A stretch of 18,536 nt of DNA from a virus. Taxonomy: Duplodnaviria > Heunggongvirae > Uroviricota > Caudoviricetes. The translations under genes were made by a program, and so were the position numbers. The DNA is taken from IMG/VR virus record IMGVR_UViG_2744054582_000011, positions 1 through 18,536 of that record; one strand, 5' to 3'. Shown here in pieces: positions 14,231-14,983 of the stretch. Numbering within the stretch: the first letter of the stretch is position 1; each line of letters opens with the position of its first letter. Under the pieces are notes generated by a model, which worked only from the letters and a program-made list of their open reading frames with translations, did not search any database and had not been told where the DNA came from.

Positions 14231-14451
14231 GCCGTTCTCCGGTAATGTTTGTTTTTTGCTTCAAAGACTGACTGACAGGAAACACAACGCGTGGCTGACG
14301 GATAAGCCGCACGACGGGCAGCAGGTATTGGCGCATCACACTCTTCGCAAACCAGCGCAGAAGCACCGCAATGTTTTACCCTTGCCGCGTTAATCTGGCG
14401 CTCCAGTAATTCAGCCTGTTGTTCCTGAATAAAATCTACGTTGTCCGACAT
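14227..14451 (-). CDS. TraR/DksA-type C4 zinc-finger protein (P2 orf82-like)
   Basis: 74 aa with CEEC...CVSC four-cysteine motif (HCGASALVCEECDAPIP...RCVSCQ); ATG at 14449-14451 overlapping the upstream stop. Confidence 0.7.
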   Translation of the reverse strand: MSDNVDFIQEQQAELLERQINAARVKHCGASALVCEECDAPIPAARRAAYPSATRCVSCQSVFEAKNKHYRRTA

Positions 14452-14741
14452 TACCAGCTCCTTTTGTCGTTCAGTTTTTTAAATTCATCAGCGCAATAGC
14501 TGGCGATTTCTGTCGTTAATTTCGTCAGTTCATCCACGGAGGAAATTTGCCTGTGGAATACAGCGCGTTTAACAAGTAAATTGACCACATCAGACAGGAG
14601 GTTTAATTTATCCGCATAAATGGCTATAGTTGATTCCACCATATCCCCAGTGTTTTTATCGCGTTTAATATCAGCTAGCGACAAATCACCGTTTTTCATA
14701 ACTGAAATCTTCAGCCAGTTATTAAGCAATATATTTTTCAT
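14451..14741 (-). CDS. Hypothetical protein (96 aa), AT-rich, within the early operon
   Basis: ATG at 14739-14741 overlaps the stop of the upstream ORF (ATGA coupling). Visibly lower GC than B and A. No recognisable motif. Confidence 0.55.
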   Translation of the reverse strand: MKNILLNNWLKISVMKNGDLSLADIKRDKNTGDMVESTIAIYADKLNLLSDVVNLLVKRAVFHRQISSVDELTKLTTEIASYCADEFKKLNDKRSW

Positions 14742-14983
14742 TCGCTGTATGCCCTCTCCGCAGAATCAATCATTTCCCGGCCATTATCGGTAATACAGAA
14801 ACCTTCTCTTGATTTGGTCACAAGTCCCCATTTCCCCATTGCTATAAATGTTTTTTCCACACGGCTAGGCCAAGAGCGGAAGACATCGCTTGAAGGATGT
14901 AGTGGAGTCTTGTCATCTAATTTTTTAAGTAATGAAAGTTGATAATCTGTTAAGCGTTTCCTTAACCATTTTGTATTTGTCAT
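14738..14983 (-). CDS. Hypothetical protein (about 81 aa), AT-rich, within the early operon
   Basis: ORF track starts at a TTG at 14989; more likely start is the ATG at 14981-14983 with AGGAAA about 9 nt upstream (MTNTKWLRKRL...). Confidence 0.5.
   Translation of the reverse strand: MTNTKWLRKRLTDYQLSLLKKLDDKTPLHPSSDVFRSWPSRVEKTFIAMGKWGLVTKSREGFCITDNGREMIDSAERAYSE

What the first reader, a model, noticed from the sequence alone, without database searches (positions are those of the whole stretch)
14451..14983. Two AT-rich small genes translationally coupled inside the early replication operon
Between B and the TraR-like gene there are three small ORFs, which I believe is one more than the two (orf80, orf81) in P2. 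The 96-aa and roughly 81-aa ORFs are visibly more AT-rich than B and A and are linked by overlapping stop/start codons (ATGA) to each other and to the TraR-like gene. They look like morons that arrived together and are co-expressed with the early lytic operon, which is typical of host-takeover or superinfection-exclusion factors.
Basis: partly seen in the sequence, partly recalled or inferred. Interest (0 to 1): 0.45.

Follow-up and report, generated by a model that had tools for sequence, protein, structure and literature searches.

The report
One extra winged-helix gene in P2 operon
Of the two small genes flagged in this P2-like prophage, one is the ordinary P2 gene orf81, and the other is a real but rare extra gene for a small basic winged-helix protein of untested function that is read together with the phage's early replication genes.

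Summary
The window is a P2-like (Peduovirus) prophage with its early operon on the minus strand. The count is right: three small ORFs lie between B and the TraR-like gene, against two in P2.

The 96-aa ORF is not new. It is the P2 orf81 orthologue (DUF5405). Its C-terminal half is about 98% identical to P2 Orf81, and P2's own orf81 is just as AT-rich (GC 0.373 against 0.378).

Only the 81-aa ORF (14738-14983, minus strand) is extra. It sits in a roughly 450-nt mosaic block (14602-15058) that also replaces the 3' tip of orf80 and the 5' half of orf81. About 3% of P2-like prophages in complete E. coli genomes carry it (55 of 1838 places), and 2 of 50,697 phage records do.

Searches of 5.8 and 1.84 billion proteins found only 42-45% identical 74-aa relatives. 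These sit in the same slot, directly after orf80, in Lelliottia-type P2-like prophages.

The gene is under purifying selection (dN/dS 0.1-0.26). The protein is basic (pI 9.5) and is predicted at moderate confidence to fold as a stand-alone winged helix-turn-helix.

It has no promoter or terminator of its own, so it is not a classical moron. Function is inferred: an accessory early-lytic DNA-binding regulator. Low interest.

The parts
14738..14983 (-). The extra gene: an 81-aa basic (pI 9.5) protein predicted to be a stand-alone winged helix-turn-helix. It is absent from P2.
   Evidence: - ORF.
- Absent from P2.
- Matches PHROG 11056 (unknown function), E = 1.6e-57.
- AF2 topology H1-b-H2-H3-hairpin-H4, pLDDT 75.
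- dN/dS 0.10-0.26.
- 42-45% identical homologues in the same slot.
14451..14741 (-). orf81 orthologue (96 aa, DUF5405). The 3' half is P2-identical; the 5' half (14602-14741) is a divergent allele.
   Evidence: - Pfam PF17399, 92.8 bits.
- Alignment with P2 Orf81.
- P2 orf81 has GC 0.373.
- AF2 model: a three-stranded N-terminal sheet plus two helices.
14602..15058 (.). Mosaic block specific to phages that carry the extra gene. It comprises the 5' half of orf81, the 81-aa gene and the 3' tip of orf80.
   Evidence: - Sliding identity to P2 falls from 93-100% per 30-nt block to 50-80% across 14620-14739, and 14740-15009 has no counterpart in P2.
- 11-mers present in at least 90% of 17 carrier loci and at most 3% of 78 non-carrier loci map only here, plus two linked SNP patches in orf80.
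14998..15210 (-). orf80 orthologue (70 aa, DUF2732) with an altered C-terminus (...LGLNK* instead of ...IGLSRGEVL*).
14934..14994 (-). Predicted mRNA hairpin that pairs the Shine-Dalgarno region and the first bases of the AUG of the 81-aa gene with codons 13-17. It starts 4 nt after the orf80 stop codon.
   Evidence: - Inverted repeat I3.
- RNA fold -13.7 kcal/mol, z = -3.7, 0 of 200 shuffles fold as well.
- Not present in the Lelliottia-type homologue.
- Any role in translational coupling is an inference.
14227..14451 (-). orf82 orthologue, the TraR/DksA-type zinc-finger protein (74 aa). It is the downstream neighbour and overlaps orf81 as TAATG.
   Evidence: -.
- P2 Orf82 binds RNA polymerase and inhibits rrnB P1 (PMC9239242).
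13955..14230 (-). orf83 orthologue (91 aa), a second DUF5405 paralogue.
15237..15252 (-). Terminator-like hairpin between B and orf80. It lies in the same B-orf80 gap where P2's record annotates a putative rho-independent terminator.

Best explanation
The flagged interval contains two different things.

(1) The 96-aa ORF is the resident P2 gene orf81 (DUF5405, function unknown). Here it is an allele whose N-terminal beta-sheet half differs from P2's.

(2) The 81-aa ORF is a rare, dispensable accessory gene. It sits between orf80 and orf81 as part of a roughly 450-nt recombination block.

The extra gene encodes a small basic protein predicted to be a stand-alone winged helix-turn-helix. It has no transcription signals of its own. 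It should therefore be transcribed from the early promoter Pe with the replication genes, only during lytic growth or induction.

Its translation appears to be chained to its neighbours. It starts 14 nt after the orf80 stop, behind a hairpin that masks its ribosome-binding site. It ends in an ATGA overlap with the orf81 start.

Most likely mechanism (inferred, not shown): the protein dimerises and binds DNA through its recognition helix (conserved S40, R/K41, K44), its wing and its basic N-terminal arm. It would then act as an accessory early-lytic regulator of phage, host or competitor genes.
For: - Orthology of the 96-aa ORF to P2 orf81: Pfam DUF5405 at 92.8 bits, 93-100% DNA identity per 30-nt block over 14451-14600, the protein alignment, and the same one-base overlap with orf82 as in P2.
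- P2 orf81 is equally AT-rich.
- The extra gene is absent from P2 and from about 97% of P2-like prophages: 54 genomes and 55 places, against 1603 genomes and 1838 places. In IMG/VR, 5 of 80 loci carry it.
- It is a real coding gene. dN/dS is 0.10-0.26 among 8 alleles. It is 0.25 over 34 substitutions between two Lelliottia-type homologues. 28 columns are invariant across proteins that are 42% identical.
- Its position directly after orf80 is conserved in a P2-like lineage that is only about 75% identical in DNA.
- pI of 9.5-9.8 is conserved among homologues.
- No promoter or terminator lies inside the block.
- A hairpin covers the ribosome-binding site.
- The gene is compatible with lytic growth: two isolated plaque-forming phages carry it.
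Against: - DNA binding is not demonstrated.
- No Pfam or NCBIfam model reaches threshold.
- The AF2 model was made from a single sequence at moderate confidence (pLDDT 75; two of the five models scored below 61).
- No candidate operator is co-inherited with the gene anywhere in the int-to-A region outside the block.
- Several copies are decaying: an IS1 insertion in IHE3034, a frameshift in E. albertii, and frameshifted clusters P0002 and P0004. Selection is therefore not strong everywhere.
- Winged-helix domains can also be protein-binding modules.
Confidence: 0.55

Rival explanations
1. The 81-aa protein is a protein-binding winged helix like the N-terminal activation domain of phage T4 MotA, which grips the C-terminal tail of sigma-70. 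It would act on host RNA polymerase as a host-takeover factor alongside the neighbouring TraR-like Orf82.
For: - The best Foldseek PDB hit is the MotA N-terminal domain (1bja; E = 6.6e-3, TM 0.71, 23% identity).
- Weak hit to PHROG 1345, 'MotA-like activator' (E = 0.003).
- Weak hit to Pfam MotA_activ (E = 0.26).
- Weak profile hit to PDB 1bja/1i1s (E about 0.8).
- The neighbour Orf82 is an experimentally shown RNA polymerase binder expressed from Pe (PMC9239242).
Against: - All the sequence hits are below significance and cover only the wing plus the last helix. That motif (GLV.K..dG..IT..G) is common to many winged-helix families.
- The MotA C-terminal DNA-binding domain is absent.
- The residues of the sigma-70-binding cleft were not compared.
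Confidence: 0.08
2. The 81-aa protein is an accessory replication factor. For example, it might bind at or near the P2 origin inside gene A, or work with B, A or the DUF5405 proteins, consistent with its place in the replication operon.
For: - It sits between B (the helicase loader) and A (the initiator nickase).
- In both lineages it lies immediately upstream of a DUF5405 gene.
- PHROGs label the two DUF5405 families 'replication initiation protein'.
Against: - About 97% of P2-like prophages do without it, including P2 itself, which replicates without it.
- The PHROG label has no experimental basis that I could find. A full-text search for DUF5405 returned no paper.
- No origin variant is co-inherited with the gene in the sampled part of A.
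- The Orf81 N-terminal allele linked to it also exists without it.
Confidence: 0.1
3. Both ORFs are morons acquired together that give the lysogen superinfection exclusion or defence.
For: - Both are AT-rich relative to A.
- The 5' half of orf81 and the extra gene are in near-complete linkage in E. coli.
- P2-like phages do carry defence cargo in hotspots (PMC9122126 and PMC13586616).
Against: - The 96-aa ORF is P2 orf81.
- There is no promoter or terminator of its own.
- Neither protein has a convincing PADLOC match: none for the 81-aa protein, and only a 10.5-bit, E = 0.02 match to BrxC for the 96-aa protein.
- The location is inside the Pe operon, which is repressed in lysogens in P2. It is not one of the recognised P2 hotspots (old/tin, Z/fun, or next to int/C).
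Confidence: 0.04
4. The 81-aa ORF is a spurious or decaying reading frame with no function.
For: - Some copies are frameshifted or IS-disrupted.
- The family is very small.
Against: - dN/dS is well below 1 in two independent comparisons.
- Relatives at 42% identity keep a consistent hydrophobic and basic pattern and the same genomic slot.
- The predicted fold is confident enough to be assigned.
- 17 of the 19 E. coli-type IMG/VR copies are intact.
Confidence: 0.03

Closest known systems
Bacteriophage P2 Orf81 (Pfam DUF5405, PF17399; PHROG 265)
   Same: - The 96-aa ORF has the same position between orf80 and orf82 and the same one-base overlap with orf82.
- Its C-terminal 50 residues are about 98% identical.
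- Its GC content is equally low.
- It has a full-length Pfam match.
   Different: - The N-terminal roughly 46 residues (the predicted beta-sheet part) are only about 60% identical.
- It is 4 residues shorter.
- Its start codon now overlaps the stop of the extra gene instead of the stop of orf80.
PHROG 11056 (unknown function), RefSeq 'hypothetical protein' in E. coli P2-like prophages, and Yersinia phages vB_YpM_115 and vB_YpM_117
   Same: The 81-aa protein is essentially this family: E = 1.6e-57 over the full length, 95-98% identity, and the same flanking genes.
   Different: No meaningful difference. This window carries the rarer allele, found at 99% identity or more in 8 of the 54 genomes. 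The family has no assigned function.
Stand-alone or MarR-type winged helix-turn-helix DNA-binding domains (for example MarR, the CggR DNA-binding domain, TubR, STIV F93)
   Same: - Predicted topology of H1, strand, H2, H3, beta-hairpin wing, then a C-terminal helix.
- The wing motif GLV.K..G..IT..G.
- A net basic charge.
   Different: - No sequence-level membership: every Pfam winged-helix hit is below its gathering score.
- At 81 aa it is much shorter than MarR proteins and lacks their dimerisation helices.
- Its DNA target is unknown.
Phage T4 MotA N-terminal (activation) domain, Pfam PF09114
   Same: - A small winged-helix-like domain from a phage transcription factor expressed early.
- It is the best Foldseek hit, and weak profile hits cover residues 43-82.
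   Different: - There is no MotA C-terminal DNA-binding domain.
- The sequence hits are not significant (11.9 bits against a cut-off of 26.1).
74-aa homologues in Lelliottia-type P2-like prophages (P0007, P0008)
   Same: - 42-45% identity.
- The same slot immediately after orf80 (DUF2732) in the early operon.
- AT-rich and basic.
- Under purifying selection.
   Different: - There the gene stands in place of orf81 plus orf82 and is followed directly by the orf83-like DUF5405 gene and A.
- It is 7 residues shorter at the C-terminus.
- The gap after orf80 is 2 nt, and there is no hairpin over the ribosome-binding site.

Membership tests
P2 Orf81 / DUF5405 (for the 96-aa ORF) | Match to Pfam PF17399 above the gathering score | tested here: met
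   92.8 bits against a cut-off of 21.6, covering profile positions 1-88 of 88.
P2 Orf81 / DUF5405 (for the 96-aa ORF) | Same position as P2 orf81: between orf80 (DUF2732) and orf82 (TraR-like), in the Pe operon | tested here: met
   Gene order. The DNA is collinear with P2 on both sides. The only difference is the extra gene inserted upstream.
P2 Orf81 / DUF5405 (for the 96-aa ORF) | High sequence identity to P2 Orf81 over the whole length | tested here: inconclusive
   The C-terminal half is about 98% identical. The N-terminal half is about 60% identical, an allelic variant that is also seen without the extra gene in L031.
Winged helix-turn-helix DNA-binding proteins (for the 81-aa ORF) | Fold with three helices, the third packed as a recognition helix, followed by a beta-hairpin wing | tested here: met
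Winged helix-turn-helix DNA-binding proteins (for the 81-aa ORF) | Significant sequence match to a curated winged-helix family | tested here: not met
   The best Pfam hits are HTH_45 (E = 0.036, 14.5 bits against 25.5) and wHTH-PRTase_assc (E = 0.04). NCBIfam gave nothing relevant.
Winged helix-turn-helix DNA-binding proteins (for the 81-aa ORF) | Sequence-specific DNA binding | not testable with these tools
   Only indirect support: a conserved pI of 9.5-9.8 and conserved S40, R/K41 and K44 on the predicted recognition helix. No co-inherited operator was found.
T4 MotA activation domain (PF09114) | Match to the Pfam model above the gathering score | tested here: not met
   11.9 bits against 26.1, E = 0.26, covering residues 49-80 only.
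T4 MotA activation domain (PF09114) | Association with the MotA C-terminal DNA-binding domain | tested here: not met
   The protein ends at residue 81, and the next gene is orf81 (DUF5405).
T4 MotA activation domain (PF09114) | Binding to the C-terminal tail of sigma-70 | not testable with these tools
Moron (autonomously expressed prophage cargo gene) | Own promoter and terminator flanking the gene, allowing expression from the repressed prophage | tested here: not met
   The consensus scan found no promoter-like or terminator-like site on the minus strand between 14451 and 15230. The nearest is the terminator-like hairpin in the B-orf80 gap at 15237-15252, where P2 also annotates one. A consensus scan cannot exclude weak or atypical promoters.
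Moron (autonomously expressed prophage cargo gene) | Base composition distinct from the neighbouring genes | tested here: inconclusive
   GC is 0.40 against 0.47-0.50 for orf80, orf82 and orf83. However, the resident gene orf81 is just as AT-rich in P2.
Known anti-phage defence or exclusion proteins | Match to a PADLOC model | tested here: not met
   No hit for the 81-aa protein. The 96-aa protein has only a 10.5-bit chance-level match to BrxC.

The most novel reading that the evidence does not exclude
The 81-aa protein is a stand-alone MotA-activation-domain-like module that binds sigma-70 region 4 rather than DNA. Together with the RNA-polymerase-binding TraR homologue Orf82, two genes downstream, it would give a small subset of P2-like phages a second way of reprogramming host RNA polymerase. 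That would be a 'sigma appropriation' element in a temperate phage.
Probability: 0.06. Interest if true: 0.6.

Novelty: new member of a known kind. Interest (0 to 1): 0.2.

Why it matters
The main value is corrective. The apparent pair of foreign genes is one ordinary P2 gene plus one rare accessory gene, so the region should not be counted as a two-gene moron or as a defence candidate.

The extra gene is a clean example of how small genes enter and leave a tightly coupled phage operon. It moves by recombination within the flanking genes. It sits on at least four different immunity backgrounds, and its slot is conserved in a distant lineage.

If the protein were shown to bind DNA or RNA polymerase, it would add one accessory regulator to the otherwise very uniform P2 early operon, whose small ORFs (orf80, orf81, orf83) still have no known function. 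It does not open a long-standing question.

Tried and rejected
- **Distant homologues of the 81-aa protein.** I ran a word-indexed search of 5.8 billion proteins, alone and with a profile. I also ran an exhaustive HMMER search of 1.84 billion representatives, scans of GTDB genomes and IMG/VR, and tblastn against 50,697 phage records. Only the E. coli/E. albertii type and the 74-aa Lelliottia type exist. The genome-contig scan returned only E. albertii.
- **Family assignment.** Pfam, PHROGs, NCBIfam and PADLOC gave nothing above threshold except PHROG 11056, which is the same protein and has no known function.
- **afdb50 fold library.** It was not available. All three fold searches were then used on PDB libraries.
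- **A co-inherited DNA target.** The 11-mer association test between 17 carrier and 78 non-carrier loci found nothing outside the block itself. Repeats inside the block are short and mostly chance-like.
- **Functional coupling between the extra gene and the Orf81 N-terminal allele.** I rejected this as a firm conclusion, because a similar allele occurs without the gene in L031.
- **Literature.** No paper mentions DUF5405. The DUF2732 hits are irrelevant. Papers on P2 list Orf80, Orf81 and Orf83 as unknown. Recent surveys of P2 hotspots do not treat the B-to-A interval as a hotspot.

Full report
**What the window is.** The window is a P2-like (Peduovirus) prophage. A 2-kb query spanning the finding (13900-15900) matches 75 phage records at 90-99% identity, including P2, Wphi and fiAA91-ss.

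The early operon runs on the minus strand. Its layout is:
- int (17541 to the window end, plus strand)
- C (17097-17447, plus strand)
- cox (16688-17044)
- an AT-rich 154-aa ORF (16214-16678)
- B (15274-15774)
- a 70-aa DUF2732 ORF (14998-15210)
- an 81-aa ORF (14738-14983)
- a 96-aa DUF5405 ORF (14451-14741)
- a 74-aa TraR/DksA zinc-finger ORF (14227-14451)
- a 91-aa DUF5405 ORF (13955-14230)
- A (11680-13965)

The annotated P2 record has B, orf80, orf81, orf82, orf83 and A.

**Checking the observation.**
- The count is right: three ORFs lie between B and the TraR-like gene, against two in P2.
- The composition claim is right in numbers. GC is 0.378 for the 96-aa ORF and 0.402 for the 81-aa ORF, against 0.445 for B and 0.535 for A.
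- The overlap between the 81-aa stop and the 96-aa start is ATGA.
- The overlap between the 96-aa ORF and the TraR-like gene is TAATG, a single shared base. P2 also has a one-base overlap at orf81/orf82.

**The 96-aa ORF is orf81.**
- It matches Pfam DUF5405 over the full length, at 92.8 bits against a cut-off of 21.6.
- Its C-terminal 50 residues are nearly identical to P2 Orf81.
- In a three-way DNA alignment, window 13900-14600 and 15040-15900 are mostly 93-100% identical to P2 per 30-nt block (lowest 83%). Identity falls to 50-80% across 14620-14739, the 5' part of orf81. The stretch 14740-15009 has no counterpart in P2, where about 45 nt stand in its place.
- P2's own orf81 has GC 0.373, so low GC is a resident property of this gene and not a sign of recent arrival.
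- The AF2 model (pLDDT 72) shows a three-stranded N-terminal sheet, which is the variable half, followed by two long helices, which are the conserved half.

**The 81-aa ORF is the only extra gene, and it is rare.**
- In complete E. coli genomes it occurs in 54 of 5426 genomes (55 places), always between the DUF2732 and DUF5405 genes.
- The conserved orf81(3')-orf83 segment occurs in 1603 genomes at 1838 places. That puts the extra gene in about 3% of P2-like prophages.
- Among 80 IMG/VR contigs whose B protein is at least 99% identical to the window's, 69 have the standard 1037-nt B-to-A interval and five carry the extra gene. Two carry a different insertion, a 335-aa PP-loop (SGGKDS motif) protein between orf83 and A. 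I recognise it from memory as PAPS-reductase-like, but no family search was run on it.
- Only two of 50,697 phage records have the gene, Yersinia phages vB_YpM_115 and vB_YpM_117. Both were isolated as phages, so the gene is compatible with lytic growth.

**The recombination block.**
- 11-mers present in at least 90% of 17 carrier loci and at most 3% of 78 non-carrier loci map only to window 14602-15058, plus two SNP-sized patches in orf80.
- The block therefore comprises the 5' half of orf81, the extra gene and the last codons of orf80. Orf80 ends ...LGLNK* here and ...IGLSRGEVL* in P2.
- In E. coli genomes the divergent orf81 5' allele occurs at 95% identity or more in 54 genomes, the same number as carry the extra gene.
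- Two further genomes have an 82% version of that allele that joins directly to orf80 in the P2 manner, with no extra gene (L031). The linkage is therefore best read as hitch-hiking of adjacent DNA, not as proof that the two proteins work together.
- The block sits on at least four different C/cox/int backgrounds, so it has been moved among P2-like phages by recombination.

**The family is very small, but the gene is real.**
- A word-indexed search of 5.8 billion proteins found only near-identical E. coli and E. albertii sequences and truncated forms.
- An exhaustive HMMER search of 1.84 billion representatives added a single distant relative, P0007 (74 aa, 44% identity, E = 2.3e-7).
- A profile search added P0008 from Lelliottia.
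- Both distant relatives lie in P2-like prophages whose backbone is about 75% identical in DNA to the window. There the order is cox, a 59-aa ORF, B, DUF2732, the 74-aa gene, a 91-aa orf83-like DUF5405 gene, and A.
- The gene therefore occupies the same slot, directly after orf80, in two lineages. In the second lineage it stands where P2 has orf81 plus orf82.
- Coding is well supported. dN/dS is 0.10-0.26 among eight E. coli-type alleles. It is 0.25 (dS 0.44, dN 0.11, 34 substitutions) between two Lelliottia-type genes. 28 columns are invariant across 42%-identical proteins.
- Some copies are decaying: IS1 in IHE3034, a one-base indel in E. albertii, and frameshifted clusters. This fits a dispensable gene.

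**What the protein looks like.**
- AF2 on the single sequence gives pLDDT 75 and a topology of helix 13-24, a short bridge, helix 33-37, helix 40-51, a hairpin at 55-58/61-64, and helix 66-80. This is a winged helix-turn-helix with an extra C-terminal helix.
- Foldseek ranks the MotA N-terminal domain first, but only at E = 6.6e-3, followed by MarR-type repressors.
- Every sequence-profile hit is below threshold: HTH_45 E = 0.036, MotA_activ E = 0.26, and PHROG 'MotA-like' E = 0.003 over residues 43-82 only.
- The protein is basic, with pI 9.46. Its homologues have pI 9.55 and 9.77.
- The invariant residues include K5 and K9 in the N-terminal arm and S40 and K44 on the predicted recognition helix; position 41 is R or K in all four.
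- I therefore file it as winged-helix by fold, at moderate confidence. It is not a member of any curated family. DNA binding is an inference.

**How it is expressed.**
- A consensus scan finds no promoter-like or terminator-like site on the coding strand between 14451 and 15230. The only nearby signal is the terminator-like hairpin in the B-orf80 gap at 15237-15252, where P2's record also annotates a putative terminator.
- Expression should therefore depend on Pe. [quoted passage not shown]
- The extra gene starts 14 nt after the orf80 stop codon.
- The mRNA is predicted to form a hairpin (14994-14934; -13.7 kcal/mol, z = -3.7, 0 of 200 shuffles as stable). It pairs the GGAAAGUUGGAAAU ribosome-binding and start region with codons 13-17.
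- A ribosome terminating at the orf80 stop would open this hairpin. This would be a plausible coupling device, but it is inference only.
- The Lelliottia-type gene has a 2-nt gap and no such hairpin.
- Downstream, the ATGA overlap passes ribosomes on to orf81.

It is partly supported.
- An extra, AT-rich, translationally linked gene exists, and it came in as a block.
- The 96-aa ORF is orf81, so the 'two morons' picture is wrong.
- The moron criteria of an own promoter and terminator are not met.
- No defence model matches convincingly.
- Prophage-expressed exclusion is unlikely for a gene buried in the repressed early operon.

**Best explanation and rivals.**
- Best explanation: a dispensable early-lytic accessory regulator that binds DNA as a small winged-helix protein. 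My confidence in the anatomy and orthology is about 0.9. My confidence in DNA binding as the activity is about 0.55.
- Rival 1: a MotA-domain-like protein-binding module acting on RNA polymerase (0.08).
- Rival 2: an accessory replication factor (0.10).
- Rival 4: a functionless ORF (0.03).

**Novelty.** The 96-aa gene is already known. The 81-aa gene is already catalogued as a hypothetical protein and as PHROG 11056, but it is uncharacterised. At most it is a new member of a known kind, a small phage winged-helix protein.

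Noticed in passing
window 16030-16690: A very AT-rich (GC about 0.33) two-ORF cassette lies between cox and the orf78-like ORF. It has a 154-aa ORF in operon orientation (16214-16678, minus strand) and a 64-aa ORF on the opposite strand (16042-16236) that overlaps its 3' end. Neither has a Pfam hit; the 154-aa ORF also has no PHROG, NCBIfam or PADLOC hit (the 64-aa ORF was scanned against Pfam only). The cassette occurs in only 4 of 5426 complete E. coli genomes and in an E. albertii prophage. It looks more like foreign cargo than the finding itself.
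   Followed up: partly
window 10385-11705: A 311-aa ORF (10385-11320, minus strand) and a 109-aa ORF (11376-11705, plus strand) sit between the portal gene and A. This is the position of the P2 old/tin defence hotspot. Neither has a Pfam hit, and the 311-aa ORF has no PADLOC hit either; the 109-aa ORF was not scanned against PADLOC. They could be uncharacterised hotspot cargo.
   Followed up: partly
L060 about 3527-4534 and L085 about 3628-4635 (IMG/VR P2-like contigs): Two of 80 P2-like contigs carry a 335-aa protein with an SGGKDS PP-loop motif inserted between orf83 and A. I recognise it as PAPS-reductase/DndC-like from the motif alone; no family search was run. It shows that the B-to-A interval accepts other occasional insertions at gene boundaries.
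   Followed up: no
L003 2742-3486; L005-L008 5777-6522: Lelliottia-type P2-like prophages lack orf81 and the TraR-like orf82 altogether. They have only the 74-aa winged-helix gene between orf80 and the orf83-like gene. The TraR homologue is therefore not universal in P2-like early operons.
   Followed up: partly
orf81 across 64 distinct standard P2-like loci (L033-L112); corresponds to window 14451-14741: Even among phages with the standard P2 architecture and B at 99% identity or more, orf81 is the most polymorphic gene of the B-to-A interval. Nucleotide diversity is 0.03-0.11 per 45-nt window inside orf81, against about 0.01-0.03 in most neighbouring windows (B has one window at 0.087). Orf81 proteins are only 87-98% identical to P2 Orf81.
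   Followed up: partly
L032 (E. coli IHE3034, NC_017628) 2646-3680; L031 (strain 600029) 2943-4220: IS1 insertions disrupt early-operon genes in resident prophages. One lies in the 5' end of the 81-aa gene in IHE3034, and one lies in gene B in strain 600029.
   Followed up: no
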